From Lytechinus pictus (lineage: Eukaryota), in the NCBI RefSeq assembly GCF_037042905.1, contig NC_087245.1, positions 17,114,001-17,178,000 of the forward strand: DNA of 64,000 bases, read 5' to 3'. The notes beneath the pieces were generated by a model. The model was not told the origin of the DNA. It saw only the letters and a program-made list of their open reading frames with translations, and did not search any database. This document shows positions 1-36,000 of the stretch, in pieces. The translations under genes were made by a program, and so were the position numbers. Numbering within the stretch: position 1 is the first letter of the stretch; each line of letters opens with the position of its first letter.

Positions 1-3000
1 TACGAATCTTTTTGAAATTATTATATACATGCACCCGCCTCTTGTCTAGTACTTTTTACAATACTCTCTCTTTCTCCTTTGACCCTTTCCTTCCCTTCTT
101 CCCCGGGCTTCTTCCCCGGGCTTCTTCCCATCTCTTTATCTCCTCCTCTCTATATCACGTGTAGAGTGCTAAATACATTTTCAGCAACTGGGATGCTAAA
201 AACAGCACCTTTTAGTCGTTTTAGTCTGTGTGAACTACAGCACATGCTGAAAAATCCATCACCCCGAAATGTTGTCACTTTTCATGCTTTTTGAGCTCCA
301 AGTTTTTAGACTCCCCCCCCCCTCTCTCTCTCTTTCTCTTTATACAGACTAAAATTAGCAGTATGCATCAACTCCTTATAAAGTGATTTATCGATTAGTT
401 GCTATGTGGAGGTGTAACTGATTAGGGTGGGCGGGGCCATGATTTCGTCCAAGTCAAACAATTATCTGGTTAAATACACCAATCTTAACATGCAGGTGTG
501 ATGTCGCTGAAAATACATTACAGTTTAGCTGTAGGCCTAGATCATTCAAAGATATTGCGTATGTACGATAAATTCTCCAGTGTTGCTATTTTCATCTGTC
601 ATGTCTGTTGCTCAGTAACTTCATTGACATTTCGTTATAGGAGTTTTACTGAATACAGAGAACAGTCCGATCTCTTAACGAGTCTGGACATGGGTCTGAA
701 TAAAATTACCGATGGGAGCGCATAAACTTGGTTGAATTATAGAAAGTAAATTAATGTATATACAAAACCATAATTCTGTGATTCGATCCATCCTCTTATG
801 AAACAGTGATAACTCCCACGAATAGTCATTTTAAAAATATAAGTTTTCACGTGAAAAACGATTTCATTAAAAAAGATACCTTGAAATATTTAAAGAAGCT
901 TGCAAGGTCTTGCTCTAAATGTTATTTTTGTTATAATTCTGTATCATAAACACAACAATTACGATGAGAAACAGATAAACGGACGCATGTGTAGGCATAT
1001 AATACTTTGTGAAGAACCCGTAAACTCGCCTACACAATAATTGTAAAATCTTAAACTGTTGCTTTTTGTGCATTACAATGCACATTATCCCACGAGGCCA
1101 GTTAGCTGTCGAGTATTCTTTTGTAGGACCGCACACGTCGGGTTATTTGTAGACTGATGGGGGCATTTTAAGAAAGGGGGCTTTTTTATTTTTCTTTCTT
1201 TACTTCCTATACATGTACATCTGAAACGAAGGGGTATAATTGGTTAGGTCTGTATTCCGTGCAATTTCGGATGAGTAAAGTCATGACATCTATTTCGACG
1301 ACCCCCCTCCTCCACTAATATTATTTCCGTATCTTCGGAAGGAGGGGGGGGGTGAAGACGGCAGAATGCCCTTTGCCGCCCCTGCCAAATGTATAGTGTA
1401 ATAAAAAGAGAGAGAGGAGAGGTGTTCATACTGTGGAAGGGGGTTTTCTGCCCCCTCTCCCGTGGAGTTTTCCAGGTAACTATATCATGTACATAGTGTA
1501 TTACTAGACCTCTAAGATCGATTTTCATTTCATTTATCCTGTTACCCGAAATATATTTTTATATTGCTAAAACCCTCTGAAAAGATAAAATAAAGCTAGA
1601 AAGATATATATTACAAGCAAGAAAAAACTTTTTTTTTTTTTTTTTTTTTTGGGGGGGGTCGCTTATCCTTCACCCACCCGTGCAGATAACCATGGGCAGT
1701 GTTATTACGTCTATGACCTCTCTTACCACTTAAATTAAAATAAGTGTGACATAACTGATCATTTGATGAAAAGACTCAGGCACCAGTTAAAAATGTATTG
1801 CATTGTATTCCCATTCCCGAATGCATGGAATGGATCCTATTGTGATTCCAAACGACTGTTCAACTCCGAAGACAACCGACTCTTGTTCCCTTACCCTTTC
1901 AGGTTTCTATTGGGGGAGAATGTGTACAAAAGCTATCTATACTCGTAAACAAATACGATCTTTGTTTGTAAATTTTCAAGAGTCGTACTATAGTATTCAA
2001 GAATAGATCTAAAAGCAGTCGCAAATTTTCCGTTCACAATACAATCGTCTTAAAATGTTACACTCCTATTTCTACCGTAACGTCGACATTGCCGCTCGTT
2101 ATCTCTATAGTTACCCTTCCTTTTCCATTCTATTTATTTTCCCACAATTTCCAAGACCATGTGATTGTTTGTAATCAACATTTCTTATATTTTCTCTTTT
2201 GAATGATTCGCCTGCATGTTGTAAACGAATGCCCATAACATCTCTCATGTATCCTAGGCCTACATCGACTGTCCACCCCACCCCACCCCGGCCGCCCCCT
2301 TGGTGGGGGCAAGGAACACGTGATTCAGCCAGCCCCCATGACCTACCATTGCCCGTTTCCTTCCCTTTCACTCTATCATCATGATCAGTCAGGTTCATTT
2401 GTAAGTCATGTCGGTGAGCTCTTTACCCATGCTAATCCCATCAAAGCTAAACGTTGTGCCGATAATCTCTATGTACATAGGTCCTGACCACACTGAACTT
2501 CACACCCCATCGGGTGCCAATAAACAATCTTGTCCTCAACTATTTCGTGCAACAGTTATTATATGATCATCAATCACATCAATGAATAATTGATTGTTTT
2601 AAAAATCCTTAATATCGTATCATTTTTATATACTGCATTCTTTTCAAAATATGAATTAATACTTCCCCGTGAGTCAGTCGGCCGTGCCGATTAATCCTTG
2701 CCCATTTTACGCGTGACACTGTATTTTATATTGTACATGATTTAGGCCTACTCTTCTATATTTCAAGTCCCATTTGGTTGAAATTCGAATGAAATTCAAA
2801 TTGAATTTTCATATGAATTATGAAAATTAACATGCGTAGCATTGCGACAAAATGAAGAAGAGTGCACTGTATATGTTAAAGCATATCCCGTGGTATTAGT
2901 GTATCTAGTTTGCATTGCTTTGCGATTTCAAACTAGAGAGGTAAGACTACGGGAACACGATCTCTTGGAAATTGTAAGCAAGCGAAGCGCGAGCGCACAA

Positions 3001-4449
3001 AAGTCCACATTTCTAAAAATAAGTAATAAATTCTTTAACAGATTCAGTAAGATTACTATTTCATTTTTAGCCTCTAAAGGAAAAAAATAATTGTCTTTTA
3101 TAGTAAGAAAGTGAAAAATAACATAATCCACTGGATCTTCAACGACATTTCTGAGCCTCGCCTTTGAGTTAGATGTAGAAACAAAATAATTGATCGTTAA
3201 ACCTTCAAGATATGACAATTCATGAAACAATGATGGATATCCTTCCATGAATCGAATTCAAAACTATGTTATTCACACACCATGACAACATTTCTCGTGA
3301 TTGTGATCTATTTTCTTAATGATTTGGTCAAACAATTACCAGGATTACATTCTTCTGTTGGTACGGAAAAAATCGTAAATTATGTCAAAGTTGAGGTTGG
3401 TTCAATTACCACTCCCCCCCAAAAAAAAACTCGGTTCGAATTTTCGGTGTCATCTTTCTTGTATCCCTTTGGTGAAACCCCTTGGCCTCTTTGCAAGATA
3501 GAAGAGCTTTTTGTGCCAACCATTCTTGAATTTTTCCGCGCCACTTATGGCCTCTATTCTTTCCTTTCATTGTGTAGAATGTTTAAATTGGAGACGGGTA
3601 TGTCCTCTTTCGGAAGAGATTAAAATAAAACGAAGAAAATGTTTGTGAGCACCCCGGCGTGCGTAATTCAGAAAAAAAACTTTTTCTTTTGTGCATAATG
3701 GACAAAACATTTCTGTGTCCGGAATGATGGCAAATAAACGGGTGTGGTATATATAATGCTGAATCTTGGCGTCTTGCTTGAAAACTCACCAAGAAAACAA
3801 ACAAGTGTTTTGTAAAGGTAGGTTGATTGTTCAGCCAACACTTTAATAAGACGGGAATAGGGCAGTAATAATGACGTTCGTTTTAAATTTTTACTTTTAA
3901 GTCCATGCAAAGACATTCTCATGAGGTTGTTCAGAAGTCAAAAGGTGTACCTAAAATTGGAAACGACAAGTAATTTACTGTCCATTCAACATACTCCAAG
4001 TTACAGACTGTGCTTTATCGAAGACATGTTATTTTACATGTGTATCCATGAGGGTTTTTTAGAGAAAGAGGGGGGGGGGGGGGTGTACACTCACTTTGCT
4101 GTGAATCACCCAGATTGGTGAATAGTTAGAATTTTGAAGTGCCTATTCAACTGACTGAGTCTTTTAAGAGAAATTTATATAGTGAAAAGTAGTATTAGAG
4201 AGTTGTGTGTGTGATTGATAATGTACTGCACAATTTCATTGATAATCATGATGTATATTTTGATTCATGAGAGAAAATAATAGGTTTTATTTCAATGAAC
4301 ACAATGAGATATAAATTCCAGCTAATATGATTTGATTTTCTTTCGAGTGATTGTTATGATAGGCCAGGTAAACTAAGAGTAGTCGTGTAGGAAATTAATG
4401 TATATCTTCACTTCACTTTGCCATAATGAGCATTTTTTGTAACAGATGT

Positions 4450-4680
4450 CAAGTATGGCGTTGGGGGAGAAATTAACGAAGTGCTGCGAGAGAGCGAAGC
4501 GAGCAAGCCAAAATTTTGACCTTTACAATATAAAAATCTATTTTTTGTAATAGATTTTGAAAAAATATTCAGAAAATGAAGTGATATTTCACCCTTTTCC
4601 ATTTTCTTTTCTTTTTTTCCTCATCTTTTTCTTTGTATTCATATTGGGGTCCATGACCCCCCATCTCGACACCCTTGCTC
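4450..4680. mobile_element. Diverged copy of the 14206-14460 MITE family
   Basis: Shares TTGTAATAGATTTTGA and ATATTTCACCCTTTTCC blocks; contains GAGCGAAGCGAGC. Ends approximate. Confidence 0.55.
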
Positions 4681-5480
4681 TAAAGTCAGTCATTTTTAAG
4701 TCTTCATTACCCAATGCCCGGTGGTCACTGACCCCTCTGCCAATTAGTCTCATTTGTTACTTTACGTTATCTTGAGCTTAAATACACGTTTTAGATTTGA
4801 CAAAATTGTTATTTTCTAGGGATAATGCATATTACAGTCTGTTAGAACACAGAGATTCGTTGTTAAATACAATTAAAACGTCTTCTATGCCTAATTATTG
4901 AAACCTTGTTATTGGTGATCATCTGAAAAGCGTTCGTTCACCCCTTTTCTAACAATCAACTTCGTTGATTTTCTACGAATTTGCTATGAAAGAAATCTAG
5001 AGAACGTTTTGAACCATACGTAAACAAATAATAATGCTTGCTGTCCCATTGCTGTGGTTACTGTACAGTTTGTCAACTATAAAGAATAACAGAATTAAAG
5101 AATAGAAATGAATAAAGGACAAGATCATCCTACGCGATAAAAAAATATCTCTCTCCCTCTACCTCTTGGCCCATTCTCATTTCTTTTCCCCTCTGTTCCA
5201 TTTCGCCCAATTTTTGCGATTTCTTTCGAAGTTTGTCGACTGAATGGGTCTCGATGAGCAAGTGGGAGGGTAAAGGGGCGGAGACAATGCAACAAACGAG
5301 GCGAATCGTGCGCCCCGTCAGACTCGGTTCAAGGAATCCCCTCATGGTTATTTTGTTCCATGGTGCGAGGGTTTGGCTGTTTGATTCCAAGGAGAAACGA
5401 AATAATATGGTTCCGAGTTTTGATATAGATTTAAAAGTCAAGTTGAATGAATGAATAGTTCATTTCGGGTGGATTTAGCC

Positions 5481-6177
5481 TTAACCCCAAAAGGATTGGG
5501 CTATTTGAGATGTATTGAGGACTGGGGGCACATTATTTACCACAAACTATAAGCCAGTATAAAAAAATCTGAAAATAAATATTTTTTCATTTATTATGAA
5601 TAAAATATGGAAATTAGTTCGTGAAAAACATTATTTGCAAATTTAACACCGAATTTCACTTCAAATGTTCTTGTTTTTTTTCCAGATGTCATCTTTGTAT
5701 TCTAGTTTAAAGGTTTCCACAAAGAAAAATTGCGAAAGCCAATTTTTCCTTATGTATTTTTTTGCTTTTAGAATTTCTTATGTATATCTTTGTTTTTTTC
5801 ATCTTTTGTTTTTCATTGTTTTAATGGAAATTATTACAGACCATTTAAAAACTAAGTTGAACCCTTAAATAATTAAGCAGACCAATTAGAATGAAAAATA
5901 ATCACCCGTTTATGAATTTCATCTCCCATAGACTTTCACAGACTTTTCAAGTATGAAAATGAGCCATTTTCGGCATGACATTTTTTCGTAAAAAGTCACG
6001 TGGCGTCGCGATGCTATACCCGTATGTCGCGAATTTGGTCTCAAAAGTTGTGTGACACTTTAAAGAAAAAAAATCATAAAATTTTGCGGCGCTATCTTTT
6101 TGTGTTACGGAAATATCGAGCGAAGCGTCAAGGGGGGCCATGATGCCCCTCCCCTTCCAGTCCTCTTAGCATCAAAA
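5481..6177. mobile_element. piggyBac-like MITE remnant
   Basis: Starts TTAA|CCC. Subterminal GAGGACTGG is mirrored by CCAGTCCTC near 6157-6165; the right terminus is degenerate. Confidence 0.5.
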
Positions 6178-6818
6178 GGTAAAATAAATCCATACGGTAC
6201 GTGTTATGATTTTGAACCGCAAGGGATAAAACGACTGAATCGAATCCGATCAATGATACTTGATCAAAATAATGTGGGGGCAACCCATTCAGCAAAAGTA
6301 GGACTAATTTATGGATTCCGTTCCGTTTGCCTCAGGTAGTTCTGACCTACTAGCTTACGGAAATCACCCGACCTGCTTGCCATTAGTCATATATTTTTAA
6401 TGGCCGATAAACGTATATCGCTACTTTTTTTTAATACAGGTCGACTTTCAAATATCTGTTTTATACCATCCCATATATCTATTCGCGTAATTTTTATTGT
6501 CTAGAAGGTATAAGTACATACGCGATTGATAAAAAAATACTTACGGCTTGGGTAGAGACAACGCAACCAAGGGATGGCTAATCCCGTGGATGTTTGATAT
6601 TCGGTCTTTGGTTTACTCCCTCGTGTGCATTCTACAATAGTTTGTGAAGAAGGAAACTTTCTTTCTTCATGTAGAGCTGTTTACAATCTAAACCAAGTAC
6701 TGCCATTCCACAACAAATGGCATTCGGCAAGCTCATTTAGCAATGTGACCGTTCCGTGATTGTTTTGTTAGGAATATAATTTCTGGAAGAATCCCTCGTT
6801 CGAAAGAAATTCACAATT

Positions 6819-6824
6819 ATGAAG
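6819..6824 (+). CDS. Candidate coding end of an alternative first exon (Met-Lys)
   Basis: attATG AAG|GTAAGA: A at -3 and a near-consensus phase-0 donor compatible with the 17053 acceptor. No transcript evidence. Confidence 0.4.
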
Positions 6825-7178
6825 GTAAGATCTCCGCGATACTTCGAAGATGTAATCTTTAAAAACATTTGTGTTCATGAATATGTTTTGTTTACCTTTC
6901 ATTTAATTTTGATAATATGTACACCTTTCAAATACATGTAACTTCCTGATAAGTGGTTTAGTTGTTGTTTAGTGGTCTTATGCGTTTTGAAGATTATCAT
7001 CATTTCCATCGTGTCAAAATCTCCAGTCGGCAAGGTCGAGGAACACTTGAAGTTTTTCGAGATTGCTTATTCTCTGCAGATTTTTATGTATATGAATAAA
7101 TAACATCGCGTATTATGGCGGCGGCGTTACTTTGTTTTTTGATTGCTTATTGTCATCGATTCTTGATATTAAGTGACA

Positions 7179-7226
7179 TTATTTATTTATTTATTTGTTT
7201 ATTTATTCATTTATTTATTTATTTAT
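7179..7226. repeat. (ATTT)n microsatellite
   Basis: Direct reading. Confidence 0.9.
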
Positions 7227-7282
7227 TACATCAGGGATTACTCCCATCAGTGGTACCTCAAATTTGCAGATAGCAATATATT

Positions 7283-7314
7283 AGTAGTAGCAGCAGCAGA
7301 AGTAGTAGTAGTAA

Positions 7315-7362
<48 letters not shown>

Positions 7363-7393
7363 CAGTAGTTGTAGTAGTAGTAGTAGCAGCAGC

Positions 7394-7440
<47 letters not shown>

Positions 7441-7526
7441 CAGTAGCAGCAGCAGCAGTAGTAGTAGTAGTAGTAGTAGTATAGTAGTTGTAGTAGTTGT
7501 AGTAGTAGTAGTATTTAGTAGAAGTA

Positions 7527-7557
<31 letters not shown>

Positions 7558-7600
7558 TAGTAGCAGTAGTAGTAGTAGTAGTAATAGTAGTAGTAGAATT
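7283..7600. repeat. Compound (GTA)n/(GCA)n trinucleotide microsatellite, ~320 bp
   Basis: Direct reading; it generates the poly-V/A and poly-T/A ORFs in the track. Confidence 0.95.
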
Positions 7601-8363
7601 AGTATTAGTTCTTGTTGTTTTTGTTTTTTGTTGAAGTATTATTATTCTATTCTTCTTCATCGTTATCATCATCATTATTATCGTTTCCTTTATAATTTTT
7701 AGTATTATAATTCTTATCTATTTCATTGAGCACGTTTAAACCCATGATTATTAGCAGATACGATTATGTTTGGTGAAAGAAAGGGGAAACTGCAAGCTAA
7801 TATTTATAAAACCAAAATACAATTTCCCAAATGAGAAGGCGTGTTTCCAACCCTAAGTAGATCTAAAGCTCTGAAAAATCTTTAAATCATATCGGATCTG
7901 CATGAGGGAAACTCAATTTTCCATGATTTCCAGGAGTGGATTTAGGTATCCTCATCGTAATCCATGATTGGCTACTAACAGGTGCAACGATGTCACCCTC
8001 TCACCCCTTCATGGATCTGAGCTGGGGTGGGATACCAGTCATGTTTGGAGGATAATCTGCTGATGGATATAGCTTTGGAAAAGCTCGAGAATTGTAATAG
8101 GATGTTTATGATGGCTTTCATTTTATCCCTGGAAATAAATTTGATAATGAGAAAACAGCCCATTATCAATAATTGGCGGAATGCTATCGATGCAGGGTTT
8201 TTAAACTAAAACAGACTCTGAGGTGAAAAACTGATAAATAATATTGATTAAACAAATAGAGAAATAAAAAGATAGGTAAATAAATAAATATACCAATATA
8301 TTGAAATAGATAAATGAATAATTGAATAAATGATTGAATAAGTAAATGAATATATTAATGATT

Positions 8364-8580
8364 GCATCAGTCGGTAGAGCGGGGGAATCGTATTCTGGTG
8401 ACCCGGGTTCGATTCACACTTGGTGCGCTAGTGCCCTTTGGTAAGGCATTAATCCTCATTACCAGGTCCTTCGGAGAGGACCTTAAGCCGTCGGTCCTCT
8501 GGTTGCTTGCTTACAAGCATTCATGCTTTCTTAGCAATCAGGTAAAAAATCCCCACCAATCAATCAATCAATCAATCAAT
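8364..8580 (+). mobile_element. tRNA-derived SINE with (CAAT)n tail
   Basis: A-box-like AGTCGGTAGAGC, B-box GGGTTCGATTC (8405-8415), a body resembling SINE central domains (GTGCCCTTTGGTAAGGCATTAATCC; GAGGACCTTAAGCCGTCGGTCC) and a 3' tandem CAAT tail. Confidence 0.8.
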
Positions 8581-10111
8581 TATATGATTGAATAAATAAA
8601 TGCATACATGAATTAATATGTACATAAATAAAATAAAAGCTAAAATACAAGAAAACAAAAACCTGAAAAATTATCATTCAGTTTTTATTCATCCCCTCAA
8701 AACACAAAACTACTAAAATCTTATGAATGTACAGGCTGTAATTATGCAATTTTATACTCACAAACCCGCCAAATTTTCGATGTGGCCTACATGTAGGCCT
8801 GCAATGTAAACCAATCTTTATAAAAATGTATCATGTCCTACAGTTTTGATGTTATATAAAAATATTTATCAGCAAACATGGGATCACTCAACACAGTCAT
8901 GTATAAAAGTTAATCAAAGGAAGCAAACAAATTAATCATCGCCGGAGTGTATGTTAGTCATTTTCAACTTGAATTTTCTTTAAAAACATCAACGGGCCAA
9001 TAGGATAAGACATGTTTTTGACTGGAGGAATGTCTATCTTTCAAACTCATGCCTGAGCTTCGAAATGTATTTAATATATTTATATTCGTCGGTAAACACA
9101 AGAACTTGACAATCGGCTTGCTTATTAATTATAATTGTTAGATTGTTTTTTAGACTATGGCGGAATCGTGTCATTAACATATTAAACATGTTCAAAACAT
9201 GCCATAGCATCCTATGTCTGGGCCTGTCAATACCACAGGAAACAGTGTCTTACAGAGTGACAGCAGATTGATCGAAGGCCTCTGTCCCGTCTATTTTAAG
9301 AGTTATATGTTTCTGATATCTTAAATACCGTTTCTGCCTGCATGGAGGTTGTACGAATATAAACCCAGCCGCTAATATCCTCATAACCCCCGACATCCGG
9401 CTGCTAGCCGATAGGGTGCAAACAGGAGTGATTTATACAAGAGAGAAAAAAAAACTAACAAACATGCAAGTGCCTTGGCTTGCCATAGCTAAAGGCGACA
9501 AAGTCTAACCATAGATCTGTAATAGCTCTATAGTTTAACACATGAAATGTATTCGTGCCGTGTGACCGCCACCGAATCCTTGGCTTGATCCGGATTGGAC
9601 AGCTACCCATGTCACGTGGTTTAATGTCACGGCGCCAGTGATGATGATGATAGCTAAATCGTTTTGCAGAAACTGTTGCGTATATCCTGTTTTGACAGTG
9701 TGTGGCGAAAATCTTTCAACTTCAGAGTAGTTTTACGACGTACAAAATTGCATTGTGATTGTTCACCAACGTCTAGACCTTTTATTTAGGAAGATGATGC
9801 CGAATTTTAGAAGCCAATTATATGCATTCATCACTTCAAACAAACACCAGTCTATGTCAGAGAATCTGGTTACCGCTAGAATGTGATCAAGGGACTCGCC
9901 TGTTCCAATTTGGAAAATTCGCAGACTTCTCCCAGACGGCTCTATTGTATGTTTTGCTTGTAAATGAGACTATCGTAATCTTTCTTATAAAAGTCAGCAA
10001 TATTTTGTCTGCTACTAAATGATGTGATTAATTATTGGAGTAGTTACCATTACTGTGACCATTCAAATTTGCAGGAAATTTGAAAAACACTTTCTTTCCA
10101 CTTCAATCATC

Positions 10112-10120
10112 ATGAAAAAG
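10112..10120 (+). CDS. Candidate coding end of an alternative first exon (Met-Lys-Lys)
   Basis: atcATG AAA AAG|GTATGT: A at -3 and a strong phase-0 donor compatible with the 17053 acceptor. No transcript evidence. Confidence 0.45.
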
Positions 10121-13100
10121 GTATGTATCTTTTTTCAGCAACCACGATTCGTTATTATTAGAATATCAAAATTCACTTCCCTTTATTTTGTCGAACATGT
10201 ATAGATACTATATATCAACGTTGTCTGCTCCGTTTGGTTATGAAGATCACTTCATCTTGACATGGAAATGTGTTCCGTGGTAGATGTAATATGTTTTATT
10301 TTGACTGTTTAATACTATTAATCTTTAACTCATAAATTTACTGTCAATTTATTGACAATTCTTAAAAATTGGCTCCATTAAATCCGGAAAATGCACACGA
10401 AGATAAATGCATTGTTGATTTATGGTAATGATGACAATAGCTGACCACATGATTGAGTTTTAACATTACCCAAGCGCTGAATTTGATTTACTGGGCATAA
10501 CAACACAACACATGTTATATCCATGGCATGAGATGGAATGACACTCTAAATGCACTTGAAAGTTACTTTTGTATTTATTTCATTGAATTCCATTCTGAGA
10601 TTAAAGATATTGCTTAACATTAAAAATGTCTCGTTTAAAAAAAAACTGAACGCTGATTTGTGTCCATATCGAAAAAAAAAAGAATTGGAAGAAATAATAA
10701 AACACTGTGCACACACTTTTCATTTTTTAAGTAATAACTTGCAAGAAATTTTCACCGGAGTGACAAAAAGTAGAAGTCTTGTAATTTATTTCCCTCGTGG
10801 GCATTTGAATTCAACACCTCACAACCACTGAAAACGAACGCAACTTTTCTTGACCTGCCAAGATGTCTGGCTGGACCTTGATACCTGGAAAGCAATCTTT
10901 AACTTTTAACAGGTTGGGAGACAAATACATGGTTATACCCTTGACACAGCTATCTTGTGTCTTTGATTGACTCGTTATCACGATCAAGATTCGGTTTAGT
11001 TCCTCAGGTCATGACCTGCAATATGTCTCTCCAAATATCCCGAACCACTTTCTAGATAATTCAGGTTTAGATGAAAGGTCTTCAGTCTGCCAACGACAAA
11101 GAAGTTTTTGTGATATGACAGAGGCGAACTTGAGCCGATAGACTCGTTTGGGATTTATGAGTTTGAATAATTTATTGTCATCTTATCTGTATACCAGATA
11201 GCATTAAAAAGACAAGATTCATTTTAATCATGTCTCTTCAACAAATCACGGAGTTGTAACAAGGCTCAGCCATAAACACTGAAGTGATTACTTTCAGATG
11301 CTTCGGATATTTTCAAAGACTTATTACAAGGCTATTACATCCATCACTCTAATGTTCAAACTTGTCATTCTTCAAGATCTTACCTTTGACATGAAATGAC
11401 CTTTAGGGTCACGGTAAAGAACTCAAGTTTGCCGATGAGACCTGGAGAACGAGGGGAAAACTGTACGCTCTACTTCACTCGAGAAACGATACCAGATGGG
11501 TGCATGAGAAATCCCCCAACAAACTTCAATCGTTACCTGTTTGCAAGTGTTCTTAAAGGCATGGACCTGTTAAGGTAATGTTCTTTTACCAAACAGTCCA
11601 GAGGGAAACCTTGGGGGAAAGGGAATGAGCTATTTTACAGCAGAGGATTTGCTAGATCCCTAACAACACTTTCAATCAAGAATCTAAACAGGTTTAGTGC
11701 GAGGCGGGAGGAGGGTGACAGTATGGCTGTAGACACCAATTCGTCCCACCACTTTCATGCTTTCCAGGACTTAAAACTGTACTTAGTCATGGTTGTTACT
11801 TGTTGAATGTAATTGCTGTTTTAAAATGTGAAACAATCAGTGAGTGATGTAGGGGAAGGTTGTGGATGCTCGCTGTTTGTATTTGTAATGAACAAGGGAT
11901 CGCATCATAGATGCAAGGTATTACAACTTCTGAACGTACTCTAGGTAGTACGGCATTGTGGCTGAATTAATGTTATTCATTCTTGGTGTATTCCGGACGT
12001 GTTGATTAGAATAGATGTTTACTCATCAACCAGGTTCTTATGACACCATTTTAGTGAAAAGCGGAAGATATGTTGAATAGATAGTGTCACTGAAAAGGCT
12101 TTGACACCCTATAAAGCACCGGGAATTAAGAAGGACAAAACTTATGCTCATAACTTCCAGGTTTGCCGGATGGACATACGAGTCTCTTCTCAGATACTAT
12201 GAGGATTTACCTCCCAAAGTAAATACAACAAAATGAACTACTATACGGAATGTACTCTTGATTCTTTGTATCGAAATCGTTTATGATTAAGTTCTCTTGT
12301 TCCATATCTGATGGAAAGCGATAGACACGGTAAACATGAAATGAGCAGTGGATATCCACTTCTGTATGATCTTCTGTTGAACGCGGTTCAACATTCGAGT
12401 GCTTTAACATTTTGATGGAGGGATACCAAACGTTCGTTAGTGATGTATTGTCGAATTATTTCCTGAGGTTACGGCAAATAAAGCAAGCAGATAGTCAATA
12501 CCTTTCCTTAAAATGTTTGATTTGGAACTCCGTTTCGAGTTGGACAAGGTTCTAAAAGCACTTTGTAAGTTTGTATTTTGTTGGATTAACTTTGATTGAC
12601 AGAAATAAACAAGCCTTGTTGAGTGAAAGTGAATCCTCTATATTCCCATTCCAAAGGGGGAGTGTTGAACCGGTACTAATGCCGGTAAAATATAATCCTG
12701 TTTATTTTTCACGTGCCTAGTCGCTTTTGACATAATTCAAGTTTGCTATTTGCCGACTCGTTGAATGATGGGATTACCCAAGTTTTCTGTTTTGTTGATT
12801 CCTTGAGCTGTCTTTTTGCCGCGTGTGGTTCATTTCAAAGTCAAACATACGTAAAATAAGTAAATCTGCAGGAATAAGCAAATGACAGTCTTGTGGAGAA
12901 ATATAACATTACATAATTATAACATAAGCATGAGTGGAGCCTATAATTCTGAATCTTAACCAATGCATGTCGTAGGACATAAAAGGAAGTCACCTTTAAA
13001 ATTGGGAGAAGGTTCTTTTTAAAGTTTATTTATCTTTCAAGATGTATATTTGTATTTGTCTTTGTGTTTGGGGCTGTGGGGCACCCCCCAAAAAAAAATT

Positions 13101-14205
13101 AACAAACAAACACACGTTTCACTACCGACGGAAAAGAAACAAAAACAAAGAAAGGACTTTTTTTTTTCTTAAAATTATGTTGAATTCGCTTTTACAAAAA
13201 TTAGATCTTGATTAAAGAGGTAATTGTTATTGCTCGAATGCTTCTATCCGCCCATCACGCCATTTGGTGATATATTTGTCATGTGATTGATCATGTGATC
13301 TGTGAAAGATGTAATCTAATTCTAAATGATGGCTATTCCTATAGTCGCTCTACTTTCACGACTTTTGTACACACATTTTTGTAACAATAGCATTCTACCA
13401 GCAATGGTTAAAACTTTATAGCAAGATTTGATAGGGGCCGCAAATTATATCGTTGAATATCATACCACTTCAGTTACTGGTAAATATAATATAATATAAT
13501 GGGATATTTTTTTTCTTCAATTTGTTGAAGGCTTTTACGTTCGTATGCAATGTTAATATTTTCTCAACGTCTCTGTATATACAAATGTACATGAATAAGC
13601 ACAGTATTAGAATATATCGTACCTTGTTCAAAGTAGGCGTCATCGTACAAGCCAATATCAACGAATAACTGAATCAATTAATTCATTTAGAAAAGGTGAA
13701 TCCATAAAAACCACAAATCTCACATCCCCTAGAGGTTTGTCGGAACGATAAAAGATTTCTTTTTCGTTACTACCTCACTGTTTATGTGTTTGAACAATAT
13801 TCCAGTGGCTTAATGTGTCTCCTTTTCATTCTTAACTATTGAAAGTTAAGAATCGTTCCGACAACCTAGCCCCTAAACCGCTTAAGGGAATAATAGGAAA
13901 ATATCCCGGGTGGAAAATTCAATTTTTCACAGAATGTGATTGATCTTTTATGTGTGAAAATAGCAAAATGGTCCATTACATTAAAAACGGCTCTGTGCGA
14001 ATGGTACTTTATATTGGGGAAAAGGAGATTATCTCGTATTAAAAGATGTACGTTTGAATACCGTCTCCCGTTTGATGTTATTCACTCAATCAAAATGGAT
14101 GAAAGGGGGGGGGGGGTCAATTGAAATAGGGTTATTTTAAGTTTTAATTATTACGGGTTGTACAAGACAAGATAATATAGGTATCGAGTAAAGTAAAGTC
14201 TGCAG

Positions 14206-14460
14206 CAGTGGCATAATAAGCACAAATATGAGGGGCTAGACATGGCTTCTGGTGCCAAATTTTCTTTTAAAAAAGGTTTATATAAAAGCCCAATTTTGTA
14301 ATAGATTTTGACAAATTTTTTAAAGAGTGATAACATATTTCACCCTTTTCCCTGTTCTTTTATCAATTTTCCTCATTTTTTTTTTGTGGGGGGGGGGTCG
14401 TGAAAATTGTTGGGGTCTATGGCTCCAAGCCCCCCCCCCCCCCCCATCTGAACGCCAGTG
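14206..14460. mobile_element. MITE with CAGTGGC-type termini (hAT-like)
   Basis: CAGTGGCAT...ACGCCAGTG with a poly-C subterminal run. The internal segment (TTGTAATAGATTTTGA...ATATTTCACCCTTTTCC) recurs at ~4530-4640. Confidence 0.6.
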
Positions 14461-17052
14461 GCCTGCCATCATAACATGATCGTAGATCTATGTAATCATA
14501 GGAATTACAAGGTTGGTAAATTAAATAATTCCAAGCCAAGCTAATTTGCAACGTCAAATTTAAGTTGTGGCGTGCGCCTTTTTTTCACTTTCATGTGAAG
14601 TTACAAACCGATTCAGAGATCTGTGCTTCGAACATATGGGTTCGAGCCTCGGGTCACTATTTTCGATGGCGATCCCAAACGTTATAAATGCAGATGGACT
14701 TAATGCCCGTTCGTACTCTCACACACGCAAACAAAAGTGAACAATAAATCAGAAATATGACCCCAACAAATAAAAATTAAAACCTAATGCCTTCTCAGAT
14801 GGGAATCCCATATTAACATCGTGATAAAAATAGTATAGACTATATTTGTTTCTTAATGAATATGATCCCTTTTATTAATTAATGGTACAAAGGAAGATGA
14901 GCTAGAAGTAAAAATAAGCAAAACTACTTGTGGCTGTCATAAAGAGGAAATTGGTGGGGGGCGAATGAAGGAGCGATTTGATTTTGAAAAACAAGGCACG
15001 CTAACAAGTGTACATACCCACTGTAGTTTGATCATCTCTTTGATGCCAATGGTGATGTAAGGTTAATTAACTGTGACATGAATAAACACATTTCGTAACA
15101 AGCAGTCGTAATCTAATTTAATGTTCATCCTCTCTGAAGTGCCTGAAATTTCTCTACGTACATACCACCTGTTCATCATCCCTCATGCATATGCATATAT
15201 ACCATCCTGATCATGGACCGACTGTACACAACGCACACCTATCCCACACACCTTCAATTCTGTCACAACAAGATATATGGGAAATAGTCCTTCCATCTTT
15301 TCACTTTGGAAAAATGAGTTACCTCAATATCAAAGAAAATACAGAGCAAAAAAAGGAAGGGGAATACTCGTTTACCAGTCCGAGAATTCATCACCTTAAA
15401 ATATCATTGTAAAGATATAGAAAGTGTGATGGATTATTGTAGTAACGTACATTCGTTTTCTTTTTCTTACTGCACCCCTATCGTTGATAGCGAGTTATAC
15501 AGTCTTCCATTTGTGATGTGCTCTGAAGAGAACATTGACGAGAGGGGAAAAAAAATCGATTTACATGACTGTTTCTATTCTGTCTTTTAAGGTGTACATT
15601 CATTAGTGTACTCCTGGTTTAAATCCATGCAGTTGTATTCATGTGTAACATCTTCGGCTTCAATGTTCTTACGCTACAATTACCAATGATGACGAAGCTA
15701 TGATTTACTTTGATCATACTGATTGAGAACTATGTTTAAGATTCAAACATACGAACGCATTGAATTCTTCGTCTATTTCGTATTATTAATTTTGTTTCTT
15801 CCCATCGATCGATTATCGGCCCAAAATATCTGGCTTTACGCAGAGACACAGAAGAGGGAAGAAAAACTCTACCCCCTATAAAGTAAAGCGAGTGAGCGAA
15901 ATGGCGGAGCTTATCTTTTTTGGTATCGTTTTGTTGTAATTTTAGATCTAATAATCTGGTGTTCCCTGGGTACATTTCGCTTAAAATTTGCAATAATTAT
16001 AGTTATCTTAGCTATTGTGCGCTTGAGACTTGAAGTTTGAAGAATAATAGGGGCAACTACCCACCACCCCCCCTCATGTTCAAGCGTGTTGATGCAGCGA
16101 TTGGGTTAGGACGTGACTCTTCTCCTTGAAAGTTACCACACATTCCGTTCTTCCAACCACTTGACCATTGTTCTTTCTCTTGGTCAAATTCGGACAGATA
16201 ATCGAAATCAATTAAACATGGCGTAAGTGCGGAACATCCCTGTAATTCGTGTTGCTTTAAAACGGTGGAGGTGGTAAAACACCAAATAGAAATTCTCATA
16301 TAATGATAGGATATCTTGTCTATATTATAGTCCTCATATTCTGTATTTTGCCAGGCTTCACTTTTAGAAATATGCCTACATGTAGGTCTGCTTGGCTACA
16401 AAGTGTCTAGTTTTAGAAAGCCATTATACTTTCTACCAACTTTGAATATCTTATGTAAATATGCCATCATTGTTGTTTAAGGGTGACAATATTTAAGTTT
16501 AAAACGAAACTGATAGTATCGCTACTTTTATTCAAGGTGTAGTGTAAGTTTCCACTTTCGGCATCATCGACACGATTTGAACTAACAACTTTCAATGTAA
16601 CCAGTTCAACACTTGTTGGCCTGAAAGGGGACATGTTGACCGACTAAATCGCATAAATATCACAATTTTCACCCGTTTTTTTCACTTCCCCTTTTTGGAC
16701 ACTGTTGAAAGTCTGATACAAGCAATAGTGTGGATGTCATGTCCCCAGAGGACACAAGTCAGAGCCCACCTATGGTCTTGTATATCTTCATTGTGATGGT
16801 ACATAACAAACAAGAATGATGCCTTTTCATTTCAACACGGTTGTTCAAACTCCCCCTTAGGCAGCCGCTATTCACTGCTATTGAATAGTGTTTGAATGCA
16901 ATTATTATGTTCTATAAATTTACTTCAGCCCAGACTCGACAGCACGTACCTACGCAGTAGGATATATGGCCTTCTAAGGTTTTAAACTCCCGTAAGCTTT
17001 GTAAAATTGGTTTTTAATTTTTCTCCTTTTCTCTGTTTGTTTCTTCTTACAG

Positions 17053-18151
17053 AGGACGGCAAATGCAGTTCGCGCCATCGGGCGTATGAATGCTCTTCGC
17101 TTGGTTTCTCAACGGAGAGCAAGCAAATCGAACGGTAGTCCATCAAGCGAGAAGACCCCAACATCACCATCTCCATCAGGTAGCAGTATCAGCTCTCCCG
17201 TGGAGCAGCCTACGGATGGGCAGGGCAGTGAGCGTACCCCTAACGCCGAATTGAAGAGAAAAGAAAAGGCAGAGATCGATAAAAGTATTGATCAGGAAAG
17301 TAGTGCAACCAATACCAGTACAGTGCCTTCTATTGAAGTAGAGACTCCGGTGAATACACAGAGTAATAGGGATAGTTATGTGAAACCTGATACGAATGGT
17401 AGAGCCTTGTCCTTTACTTTAGACTCGGACGTGGAAAACGACAGTGGTCTTGATCTGTCCTTGGATCAGAACGCTCTAGGAAAGCGCAGCGCGAGATCAT
17501 CCCAGAATTCAGTCAGCGAAGGAAGGGACGAACTGCCCAGTGACTTGAGTCTTAAAACCGACGGTGTTAATAATAATACACGTGATCAGAGTTTAAGCCT
17601 TGATAAGGATGGTCAGCAGCGTAATTCCGTGATCGACACTAATTCCGTGACATCATCCTCGGCTGATAAGAGTGATATCAGCCTGTTGTCTGATGCGAGT
17701 GAAGATACCAGCGATCCCGGAGTAAACATGGACCGATACCTCTACGATCCCAACAAGGGGGTGAAGAATCAGGCTGCGAGGTGGGAGGTGCGTACCAATA
17801 GTCCAGATAGGAAGTCCACCAAGAACAAGGCAGGTGGTGGTGGTGGTGGACAGTCACCCCCGCAGCAAGCACCGGTCTTCAGGCAGAAGTTCCGACACTG
17901 TGAGGTGATCGCAGGATCAGTGGCATGCTTCGAGTGCTGTGTGGATGGCAACCCTAGCCCTGATATCATCTGGTATAAGAACGGTAAGAGGGTCCAGGAG
18001 AACGAGAGGTACAGGATCATGAAGGGCGGTGAGGATATCCATTCTCTGGTGGTCAAGGATGTCACCAAGGATGACCAAGGCACCTACATGTGTGAAGCAA
18101 GGAGCCCGGCCGGAAAGGCCCGCTGTAGCGCCAGACTAGTGGTGCAGCAAC
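17053..18151 (+). CDS. Exon: CaM-binding half-motif RTANAVRAIGRM, Ser/Asp-rich linker, Ig domain 1 (APVFRQK...CSARLVVQ)
   Basis: Long polypyrimidine tract ending ttcttacAG at 17051-52, in frame with ORF 17086 (phase 0). Donor C|GTAAGT at 18152 (phase 1). I-set signature C..W..D.G.Y.C. Confidence 0.93.
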
Positions 18152-29000: not shown

Positions 29001-32000
29001 GAATGTTCGAACTTGAGGCCTTTAAAAATCATACAGGCATTTTATATACATAACTGAAAGAGGGAGCTAAATATCATAGAAAGCACAATTTCAATTTTCA
29101 CAAAGAATCATCGTCTTGAATACATTGATTTATCCCTCTTGATTTGTAATTATGAAGAACAATATATTTTCCTTGCCTTTAATCCGGCAAGCTGTACATT
29201 CCATTTCATTATGTCCCTGTAAAGGGATAGACGCTGGGACCAGACGTTTGATTCCTTCGGGATTTCGTGTTTGTCTGGAAAACGGAATATGTTTGCCATA
29301 AAGTCAGTAGCATTGCAAACACGGTACGTTTATCATTAAATAGAATCGCTTTTTATTTTGAATTTCAATTTTCATGCCAAGTGGTAACGATTTATAGTTT
29401 CTTCCACCCCCACCCTCATCGTATTTGACCTCAATTTTTATTTTTTTTTATTGAAAGTGGAAGGAGCTAGGAGTGAGCATCTAAACAAAGTGGTTAACGA
29501 ATTGAAGTTGCAGCTTCTTCTTGAATCTAGTGCTTGCATCTTTTATTCTATTTATTAAATGAAAAAATACCAAGACAAGATGTGATGAATGAAAATGAGC
29601 CATATTTAGCGTGAAGGCCCACCTTAATCATACGAAAGAAAATTGTACACTTCCTTCAATTGCGTGCTTGAAACCCAACAAATCTTGACGGGATATTTGA
29701 ATAGATTTTTCTTTCATGGTCCTAGCTAACATGGAAAATGAATTGGTATTTTGCGTCCAATTATCTCTATGTGTGCCCTCTATACGAAATAAAAAGGAAT
29801 TTATTCAAGTGGACATTTTGACTAACAATGGATGGATATGCGAAGATTCCCTGATCAAAGTCATTCCCACGTGAAAAAAATCATCACAGCCCCCCCCCCC
29901 CCTTCTTAAGAAAACCCTCTCTGTTCAGTGTCTCCTGAATAAATTATTTCATGTCTTCCATAATTTTTTTTTTTTGGGGGGGGGTTGGGGCTTACTATGT
30001 TGACTATAGTCAGGGATAAAGAAGAAAAATTCTCACGTAAAAGATCCTTCTTACGTTGTGAATGGCTGACCACATCAAGATCTATGCATTTTGAAGTACT
30101 ATCAAACTAAAAAACAATCTCAATTCGTATTTTCAATATCGCACCGAATTACTGAAGTTCTCAATGAAATCTGAATTGTAAATGAAGACATTCAACCAGA
30201 AAATATTCATTTCATATTTTCCCACGTAACCTCTCTTTATCGTTGCCCCATTCTTCATGAAGTTTGTCCATTGAATAATGGAAAATATATTTCATTATGG
30301 TTTTGTCTCATCCGAGCGAGAACAAATGAACTCTCCTTTTTTCACAGTCAGAGTCCAATGAAATATATTGTACGGTAATAAACCCTCACAATATATATTC
30401 ATGGGGATCAGAGTGTGAGAGAGAATTTGGGACCGAATATAAAAATGGGAGTAGATTAGAAATATATGCATGTATAATACTATGCTCTCTGCAAGCATAC
30501 CCCAGGAGGGAAGGGGGCACCCTGACATAATTTATTATTTTTTTCCATTGCTTGTCACAAATTTTTTGACAGGTAAATGTTTCTGATAATGGTAGTGACT
30601 TTGATTTGCTGTTGTTAATTATTGTTACTTGCGAGCCATGCCCCCCCCCCCTTCTCCGGAGAGTTTTTCTATTACGTCACTGAGGGTATGCTTGCTCCCA
30701 CTGTTATATCATGGACATGGTTATATGCTCTAAACAATGCTCCCATCACCCTCCATGCACAATGGTGCTGACATTTTCAAGTGATGAAAAAATATGACAT
30801 TCATCAAGCTCATGGCAATGTTTCCTGCAAGTGAAGCATTATAGAGGCGTTTTTATGTCCTACGTACTTGGAGCTGTCGGGGGAGTGTGATAAATTGATA
30901 TTCTATCCCTTACCCTGACCGTATTCTTTACAAATGAATACATATTTCATAACATATCTATTACATTTTCGTAAGCCTCAAGGTCAATTGCACGCACTGA
31001 CCTTGAACGCAATGGGGGATGCAACGACACCCCGCTATCATAACTAATCACTATTTTATGATATGAATGATCTTCCAAACATACATCGCAAGTGGTAATA
31101 TCATTATGATTTATCGTGTATTCTAACATGAGTGACGAGAGCAAGGGAGCCTGTAGTTCACGTCTAGGAGGTACTCAATCACCCATTAACGGTCGACATT
31201 TTAAAAAGCCTGGTATTCGGTTTATAATTGTGTAATGACTTCGTAAGCCCCCACCTGCAGCGAACGGGCTTTCCTTTCCATACCCTATTACCCTTTCAAG
31301 TCGTAATTTAATATTTGTCAAAGTTTTCATATATTTTTGTTTCATATTTTAGGTAAACTTGCTATAAATTAATTTTGTCAATTTATTGCGCTTGAAGAAA
31401 ATCATTCATGTTCAGACTCTTTTTCATTAGATGTTAAAAAAATATTTCTCTTACTCAAATACGTATTTCTGATTTTAACATGTTTAAGAGAATTTCACTA
31501 GAAAGCCTTGAACGAGACAACCCTACAAACTTCATATTATCATAAATTGTTTTCCTGAATGTGCACCTTTTCTTACAATCGCATTGCCGAAAGCGCGCAT
31601 GCAGAAGAACATAGGAGTATACCTAGCATATTCACTCGAAGTAGACGTATATATCAAAAAGGGGATCTATATATTCAGCATTTTCTTTTTATTTCCTTTT
31701 ATCTTTCACAGATCCAGTGTCTAATACTAGTAACCACGAAGATAAAAGGTAAGTTAGTTTTAATTATACCTCTTTTCCTTTAATGTCTTTGGTTAAATGT
31801 ACTTCTCTACAAACATGGACTTACTAGTAGTAGGTCCATGCTATAACTTAACCATGAAACGATTCATCCTATTTTCTCTATCTTGTTAAATCCAGTCCTG
31901 CCATTTTCTTCAGTTCTTTGTTCTCACCTGACTTACCGGTGCTATGTTCTCTTTGTACTAATATTGTTCGTTTTTATTTCATTATGATGTGTTCTTTATA

Positions 32001-35955: not shown

Positions 35956-36000
<45 letters not shown>

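What the first reader, a model, noticed from the sequence alone, without database searches (positions are those of the whole stretch)
17000..17175. Intron splits the CaM-binding helix, followed by a telokin-like RRAS...SP..TPTSP stretch
Seen: a phase-0 acceptor falls right before R-T-A-N-A-V-R-A-I-G-R-M, so only the C-terminal part of the motif is on this exon. It continues LVSQRRASKSNGSPSSEKTPTSP. Established: in vertebrate MYLK the telokin promoter lies in an intron interrupting the CaM-binding domain, and telokin begins MAMISGLSGRKSSTGSPTSP with a PKA/PKG site and proline-directed sites. Inference: the intron position and the phospho-regulated telokin N-terminus may be ancestral, and the 17 kb upstream may be the homologue of the telokin-promoter intron. 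The ATG at 17086 could serve as a telokin-type start.
Basis: partly seen in the sequence, partly recalled or inferred. Interest (0 to 1): 0.7.

Follow-up and report, generated by a model that had tools for sequence, protein, structure and literature searches.

The report
Two-kinase myosin light chain kinase
This sea-urchin exon belongs to a myosin light chain kinase gene that echinoderm and acorn-worm gene models show with two kinase modules, where vertebrates have one; the flagged intron follows the extra front kinase and likely holds internal start exons that would make a one-kinase form, not the small protein telokin.

Summary
The splice acceptor and peptide are real: exon 17053-18151 starts in phase 0 with the second half of an MLCK calmodulin-binding helix. 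But this is not the telokin end of the gene. Downstream lie 8 more Ig domains and two DFRxxL motifs. Gene models of 9 of 12 echinoderm and hemichordate species show a MYLK with two MLCK kinases (K1-helix-Ig...DFRxxL-Ig3-Fn3-K2-helix-telokin Ig); the other 3 are split models. The finding is the helix behind the extra N-terminal kinase K1.

In 6 of 12 species, models lack K1 and join an alternative first exon at exactly this junction, or start at the Met of 17086; matching mini-exons lie in the window's intron. In 5 of them the product is a 2,700-3,200 aa one-kinase MYLK, collinear with vertebrate long MYLK, not telokin. The telokin-like phospho-stretch is not significant (p 0.06) and not conserved. 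No strict CArG box lies in the intron. The vertebrate intron's exact codon could not be checked. I found no paper on the two-kinase form, in a limited library.

The parts
1..17052 (+). 3' part of the intron that splits the calmodulin helix of kinase 1; the K1 exons lie upstream of the window
   Evidence: No kinase exon in the window; orthologues join WQ to this exon
3921..3965 (+). Candidate alternative first coding exon, 15 of 15 residues equal to the N-terminus of L. variegatus isoform X3; no GT follows it in this window, so it may not splice in frame here
6819..6824 (+). Candidate alternative first-exon end coding MK, followed by donor GTAAGA
   Evidence: Only match in 1-17052; 0.08 expected with a strong donor; MK-starting models in L. 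variegatus and S. purpuratus
10112..10120 (+). Candidate alternative first-exon end coding MKK, followed by donor GTATGT; TATA-like box at 9986
   Evidence: Only match; 0.007 expected; MKK-starting models in L. pictus, L. variegatus and S. purpuratus
11396..11574 (+). First exon of the L. pictus model P0281 (one model only; weak)
12161..12218 (+). Second exon of model P0281, phase-0 donor GTAAAT
17011..17052 (+). Pyrimidine tract and AG acceptor
17053..18151 (+). Exon A (1099 nt, phase 0 to 1): second half of the K1 calmodulin helix, Ser-rich linker, telokin-type Ig domain
   Evidence: RNA-type contigs end at 18151
17053..17088 (+). RTANAVRAIGRM, positions 3-14 of the W-x6-V-x5-M helix
   Evidence: 9 of 12 identical to mouse MYLK
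17063..17089 (+). Short out-of-frame ORF whose stop overlaps the ATG at 17086; both ATGs have C at -3
17086..17088 (+). ATG used as start by models in 5 species (window-encoded P0286, and long K1-less models)
17113..17169 (+). RRAS...TPTSP stretch; urchin-specific in this form
17872..18144 (+). I-set Ig domain after K1; telokin-like; best class for vertebrate MYLK Ig1
   Evidence: Pfam PF07679 E 1e-22
31712..31748 (+). 37-nt exon linking exon A to exon B in frame
   Evidence: AG/GT ends, peptide matches orthologues
42922..44516 (+). Exon B: Ser-rich linker and Ig 2
52974..59817 (+). Eight exons for Ig 3-8 and the first DFRxxL motif (59792-59809)
60269..63987 (+). Two exons: second DFRxxL motif (60339-60356) and the next Ig; two more Ig, Fn3, kinase 2 and the telokin Ig lie beyond the window

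Best explanation
The exon carries the second half of the calmodulin-binding helix of an extra N-terminal kinase (K1) in a sea-urchin MYLK gene that echinoderm and hemichordate gene models show with two MLCK kinases, and the intron before it likely holds internal promoters that would yield a form without K1. Shown: exon, helix half, downstream Ig and DFRxxL exons, and the two-kinase layout in orthologue models. Inferred: K1 is catalytically intact and is switched on by Ca2+/calmodulin through the W-x6-V-x5-M helix, which is complete only when the upstream WQ exon is spliced on. Transcripts starting in the intron splice a tiny first exon (MK, MKK or non-coding) to 17053, lose K1 and the W anchor, and encode a 2,700-3,200 aa one-kinase MYLK with the domain order of vertebrate long MYLK. 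The cell would thus choose between one and two kinases by promoter. The extra module arose by duplication of kinase, helix, intron and telokin-type Ig.
For: Two-kinase K-Ig7/8-dd-Ig3-Fn3-K-Ig models in 9 of 12 ambulacrarian species, the other 3 split. The window's exons map in order on residues 299-2047 of the S. purpuratus model. Contigs extend 1224 and 1217 nt upstream of exon A (K1 needs 897) and 2688, 6350 and 8237 nt downstream (the rest of the reading frame needs 7125). Catalytic Lys, HLDLKPEN, DFG and APE are intact in all 8 ambulacrarian K1 checked. K1 falls in the MYLK group, apart from obscurin/SPEG kinases. K1-less models join at this junction in 6 of 12 species; three sea stars share a related 17-residue first-exon peptide. 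MK and MKK exon ends with strong donors each occur once in the intron; both together in 0 of 300 simulations. The post-K1 Ig best matches telokin among mouse Ig domains.
Against: All isoform evidence comes from automated gene models. I have no direct read across K1-exon A, or from exon A to kinase 2; contig lengths only fit. The L. pictus annotation splits the locus and gives 364-454 aa models without a kinase. The candidate first exons were not covered by the one read lay. The exon at 3921 lacks its donor here. The kinase tree does not group the K1 domains: Ptychodera K1 and K2 pair up (100/99) and one ambulacrarian K1 clade is rejected (p-AU 0.009), so a single origin needs gene conversion. 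No activity or calmodulin binding was tested.
Confidence: 0.8

Rival explanations
1. One reading: this is the telokin end of MYLK, and an intronic promoter gives a small non-catalytic, phospho-regulated telokin-like protein starting at ATG 17086.
For: L. pictus models of 364-454 aa hold only linker and Ig, and one starts at 17086. The Ig is telokin-like. A TATA-like box lies at 16913. Mouse telokin promoter lies in the helix-splitting intron.
Against: Those models end by reading through the donor at 18152; contigs crossing it have depth 2-3 against 48-71 for spliced ones. Depth just upstream of the acceptor is 0, 0, 0 and 0.25. The gene continues with 8 Ig and 2 DFRxxL in the window. The helix-to-Ig linker is 274 aa against 61 in mouse. 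RRAS is not conserved. No strict CArG.
Confidence: 0.07
2. Two neighbouring genes (a short K1-Ig kinase and a long MYLK) that annotation fused; exon A is the last coding exon of the first gene.
For: Split models in L. pictus, D. antillarum and Antedon; a K1-Ig model of 695 aa with its own C-terminus (P0025).
Against: Fused models in 9 species; an in-frame 37-nt linking exon; single contigs run 2.7-8.2 kb past exon A; a D. antillarum model also joins exon A to exon B.
Confidence: 0.08
3. The two-kinase form is real but arose more than once (echinoderms, hemichordates) by local kinase duplication, and says nothing on the ancestor of vertebrate MYLK.
For: Ptychodera K1 and K2 are 81% identical and group together; one ambulacrarian K1 clade is rejected.
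Against: Same layout in both phyla. The Ptychodera post-K1 Ig scores best on the echinoderm post-K1 class (125 against 119 and 105 bits). Kinase identity is high but Ig identity only 51% between its two modules, as a conversion tract would give.
Confidence: 0.3

Closest known systems
Vertebrate MYLK (smooth/non-muscle MLCK, long 220 kDa form)
   Same: Ig array, DFRxxL motifs, Ig-Fn3-kinase-helix-telokin Ig; same W-x6-V helix; intron inside the helix; internal promoters.
   Different: An extra N-terminal kinase with its own helix and telokin-type Ig; 2 DFRxxL against 4 in mouse; 3 Ig after them against 2; long Ser-rich linkers. None of the 96 vertebrate rows has two kinases.
Telokin / kinase-related protein (KRP)
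   Same: Start inside the intron that splits a calmodulin helix; a Met just after the helix; a telokin-type Ig follows.
   Different: Telokin is a 17 kDa non-catalytic product of the last three exons (PMC9343278, passage). Here the products are long, keep kinase 2 and use spliced first exons kilobases upstream; helix half, linker and Ig sit on one exon; no strict CArG; phospho-site not conserved.
Obscurin / SPEG / UNC-89 tandem kinases
   Same: Two MLCK-branch kinases in one Ig-rich chain (PMC3114093, passage).
   Different: Their kinases are both C-terminal and the second is divergent. Here both are MYLK-type (60-81% identical), at opposite ends, each with a full calmodulin helix. Echinoderm and hemichordate obscurin-like kinases form a separate clade.
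Two-kinase models of scallop, Lingula and cnidarians
   Same: Two MLCK-branch kinases in one model.
   Different: Scallop and Lingula K1 form their own clade with a GTAEF loop (twitchin-like by recall); cnidarian second kinases lack the helix. One clade of all bilaterian K1 is rejected (p-AU 0.0006).

Membership tests
MYLK (smooth/non-muscle MLCK) | MLCK-type kinase with intact catalytic motifs | tested here: met
   In orthologue models only; both kinases lie outside the window
MYLK (smooth/non-muscle MLCK) | Calmodulin helix with W, V and a hydrophobic residue at 1-8-14 | tested here: met
   Window half plus WQ from orthologues; the 1-8-14 label is recalled
MYLK (smooth/non-muscle MLCK) | DFRxxL motifs before the last Ig-Fn3-kinase block | tested here: met
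   59792 and 60339; layout
MYLK (smooth/non-muscle MLCK) | C-terminal telokin Ig after the kinase | tested here: met
   After K2 in orthologues; best match of mouse telokin Ig
MYLK (smooth/non-muscle MLCK) | One kinase domain per chain | tested here: not met
   Two in the longest models of 9 species; met by the internal-start forms
MYLK (smooth/non-muscle MLCK) | Ca2+/calmodulin-dependent phosphorylation of myosin regulatory light chain | not testable with these tools
   Needs an assay
Telokin | Promoter in the intron that splits the calmodulin helix | tested here: inconclusive
   Models and candidate exons point to internal starts; no start-site data
Telokin | Same codon and phase as the vertebrate intron | not testable with these tools
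   No vertebrate genomic DNA on hand; paper passage places the intron within the helix without a codon; search gave nothing
Telokin | Small non-catalytic product from the last exons | tested here: not met
   Internal-start models of 2731-3240 aa keep kinase 2; short L. pictus models are donor read-through
Telokin | Conserved R-K/R-x-S kinase site near the N-terminus | tested here: not met
   Present in 3 of 10 K1 modules, 0 of 9 ambulacrarian K2 modules; shuffle p 0.06
Telokin | CArG box in the promoter intron | tested here: not met
   0 strict CArG in 1-17052, 1.06 expected; 7 one-mismatch boxes; the 5' part of the intron is outside the window
Obscurin/SPEG/UNC-89 | Two C-terminal kinases of the obscurin clade | tested here: not met
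   Kinases at opposite ends; separate clade

The most novel reading that the evidence does not exclude
The deuterostome ancestor had a two-kinase MYLK, and vertebrate long MYLK is its K1-less isoform fixed by loss of the front kinase. The exon flagged here then marks the old start of the 220 kDa form, vertebrate Ig1 is a second telokin domain, and the long-MYLK and telokin promoters are serial copies of one promoter-bearing intron in a duplicated kinase module. Vertebrate Ig1 scores best on the post-K1 Ig class in 4 of 4 vertebrates (margins 7-17 bits).
Probability: 0.35. Interest if true: 0.7.

Novelty: new variant of a known kind. Interest (0 to 1): 0.5.

Why it matters
MYLK is taught as a one-kinase gene with three promoters. 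A conserved two-kinase form in echinoderms and a hemichordate, with promoter choice deciding whether the front kinase is present, gives a testable origin for the vertebrate long isoform and for intronic promoters in the helix-splitting intron. It also matters in practice: sea urchin and sea star eggs are standard models of cytokinesis, and knock-downs, inhibitors or probes of 'MLCK' there would hit two kinases that likely differ in control. K1 lacks the R-x-x-S after the helix in 9 of 9 echinoderm modules, while all 9 ambulacrarian K2 modules keep it; by recall this is the site that lowers calmodulin affinity when phosphorylated.

Tried and rejected
No whole genome is held, so the K1 exons and the 5' part of the intron could not be read. 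PDB sequence search with the 50-residue peptide: no match. tblastn for kinase exons in the window: none. The run search listed no holder on record as RNA; only run X22 is recorded RNA. A read lay over the downstream exons was not obtained, so contiguity rests on contig lengths and gene models. [quoted passage not shown] A source for the desensitising site after the helix was not found, so it is recalled. Telokin-like N-terminus as ancestral: rejected. Scallop, Lingula and cnidarian two-kinase models as the same thing: rejected. Earlier scan findings: none. Amphioxus and sea cucumbers gave no two-kinase MYLK among the listed hits, which is weak evidence because only the best 120 of 721 and 150 hits were shown.

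Full report
Observation. The sequence at 17011-17052 is a pyrimidine tract ending in cag, and the exon opens in phase 0 with RTANAVRAIGRMNALRLVSQRRASKSNGSPSSEKTPTSP. The first 12 residues are 9 of 12 identical to mouse MYLK after WQ. Four runs were laid on 16000-21000; all cover 17050-18151, and depth in the bin just upstream is 0, 0, 0 and 0.25. The exon ends at a donor at 18152 and also encodes a 274-residue linker and an I-set Ig. The window encodes a protein filed with Lytechinus pictus models, and its longer exons are 95-100% identical to L. pictus model P0279.

Where the exon sits. The window holds no kinase exon. Downstream on the same strand lie a 37-nt linking exon (31712-31748, in frame), exon B (42922-44516) and ten more exons, with 8 further Ig domains and two DFRxxL motifs at 59792 and 60339. 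In mouse MYLK these motifs lie before the kinase, so a helix upstream of them cannot be the telokin end. Orthologues explain it. Diadema setosum XP_072180958.1 has two Pfam kinase stretches. My own kinase, Ig and Fn3 profiles give K-Ig7/8-dd-Ig3-Fn3-K-Ig in L. variegatus, S. purpuratus, D. setosum, Amphiura, Patiria, two Asterias species, Acanthaster and the hemichordate Ptychodera: 9 of the 12 ambulacrarian species seen; L. pictus, D. antillarum and Antedon have split models. Of the 120 hits listed (best 120 of 721), 21 had more than one kinase: 5 of this type, 5 obscurin-like, 2 lophotrochozoan and 9 cnidarian or cnidarian-like. The other 99 had one: 96 vertebrate and 3 echinoderm rows. The window maps in order on residues 299-2047 of the S. 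purpuratus model.

Is it one transcript? Single contigs hold exon A with 1224 and 1217 nt upstream and 2688, 6350 and 8237 nt downstream; K1 needs 897 nt and the rest of the frame 7125 nt. That fits one mRNA but I did not see those flanks, so it is inference. Contigs that read through the donor have depth 2-3 against 48-71, so the short L. pictus 'palladin-like' models look like read-through.

The intron. The break after WQ is old. At K2, urchin models insert a 19-residue acidic cassette exactly there, and sea star, Lingula, scallop and several unnamed arthropod-like models diverge at the same point. [quoted passage not shown] The codon is not given and no vertebrate model in my sets breaks there, so identity of position with vertebrates is likely but unverified.

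Internal starts. In 6 of 12 species, models lack K1 and either join a short first exon at this junction or begin at the Met after the helix, the ATG at 17086 here. Urchins share MK and MKK starts; three sea stars share a related 17-residue peptide; urchin and sea star first exons do not resemble each other. In the window, ATGAAG-GTAAGA (6819) and ATGAAAAAG-GTATGT (10112) each occur once in 17 kb; with a strong donor 0.08 and 0.007 are expected and both together appeared in 0 of 300 simulations. The 15-residue start of L. variegatus X3 is at 3921-3965 but has no GT behind it here. There is no strict CArG in 1-17052 (1.06 expected). These are automated models and candidate exons, not mapped start sites. 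In 5 of the 6 species the products are 2731-3240 aa and keep kinase 2. Telokin, by contrast, is a 17 kDa product of the last three exons (PMC9343278, passages).

The telokin-like stretch. Its alignment to mouse after the helix is reached by 303 of 5000 shuffles. R-R/K-x-S is present in both Lytechinus species and S. purpuratus only: 3 of 10 K1 modules (three sea stars have a weaker KKxT) and 0 of 9 ambulacrarian K2 modules, which are the true telokin homologues. An ancestral phospho-regulated N-terminus is not supported. A different pattern is consistent: the third residue after GR is Ser in all 9 K2 modules and in mouse, and is absent from 9 of 9 echinoderm K1 modules, present in Ptychodera K1. 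That this Ser is the site that lowers calmodulin affinity is recalled; I found no passage for it.

Mechanism. Shown: layout, helix, splice sites. Inferred: K1 keeps the catalytic Lys, HLDLKPEN, DFG and APE and is released by Ca2+/calmodulin through a helix that is whole only when the WQ exon is spliced on. Starts in the intron drop K1 and the W anchor. The result would be a long actin-bound scaffold with one or two calmodulin-gated kinases by promoter choice; actin binding by DFRxxL is recalled.

Origin. K1 and K2 fall in the MYLK group (87/95), apart from obscurin/SPEG kinases (100/99); echinoderm K2 form a clade (99/91), K1 do not resolve, and Ptychodera K1 and K2 pair up. One echinoderm K1 clade is not rejected (p-AU 0.22), one ambulacrarian K1 clade is (0.009), as is one with scallop and Lingula K1 (0.0006) (30 of the 61 rows). 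The Ig after K1 is telokin-like in all five species tested against mouse; Ptychodera's scores best on the echinoderm post-K1 class, narrowly. So the module duplication is probably shared, with conversion in Ptychodera, but independent gains remain open. Vertebrate Ig1 scores best on the post-K1 class in mouse, a bird, zebrafish and lamprey (75/68, 82/67, 85/70, 75/58 bits), and Ig5, the post-DFRxxL Ig domains and telokin also match in order. This fits vertebrate long MYLK being the K1-less form, but Ig profiles cross-match and the margins are small.

What is known. Tandem MLCK-branch kinases are described for obscurin and SPEG (PMC3114093, passages). Searches for a two-kinase MYLK in echinoderms or hemichordates (listings only) and passages of PMC4883820, PMC2169486, PMC5167519, PMC7037368, PMC4819215 and PMC5440522 showed no description. 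The library lacks most subscription papers, I did not see the sea-urchin kinome paper (recalled), and I read no supplements, where kinome tables could list the two domains. The architecture is present in public gene models under plain names.

Verdict. Real feature, partly misread. New variant of a known kind; interest 0.5.

Noticed in passing
Beyond the window; models P0280, P0279, P0296, P0297 against P0282, P0288, P0298: Urchin kinase 2 has an optional 19-20 residue acidic cassette inserted exactly at WQ|KT, which would cut the W anchor off the rest of the calmodulin helix; seen in both Lytechinus species and S. purpuratus.
   Followed up: partly
Models P0292, P0045, P0311, P0290: Sea star isoforms end shortly after WQ of kinase 2 by running into the intron, with a similar short tail in Patiria and Acanthaster; a form without half the helix and without the telokin Ig.
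   Followed up: no
window 17063-17089: Out-of-frame 8-codon ORF whose stop overlaps the ATG at 17086; both starts have a weak context.
   Followed up: partly
window 3921-3975: Exon peptide identical to L. variegatus isoform X3, yet no splice donor follows in this window; a GT 5 bases on would shift the frame.
   Followed up: partly
Models P0289, P0314, P0320, P0041, P0152, P0044: A motif like LLKAKREE lies 23-31 residues after the helix in K1 of sea stars, K2 of brittle star and crinoid, and both modules of Ptychodera; not found in urchins or vertebrates.
   Followed up: partly
Models P0048-P0056, P0160, P0046, P0047, P0043: Other multi-kinase MLCK-branch models: cnidarians (first kinase with helix, second without), scallop and Lingula (different front kinase), and a three-kinase obscurin-like model in Ptychodera.
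   Followed up: partly
window 18954-19036: Short high-copy repeat, heavily represented in all four runs laid.
   Followed up: no
window 7173-7717, 17824-17850, 20454-20524, about 35970-36010: Simple repeats: a long trinucleotide tract near 7.3-7.6 kb, a GGT run in exon A that varies in length among reads, and dinucleotide runs.
   Followed up: no
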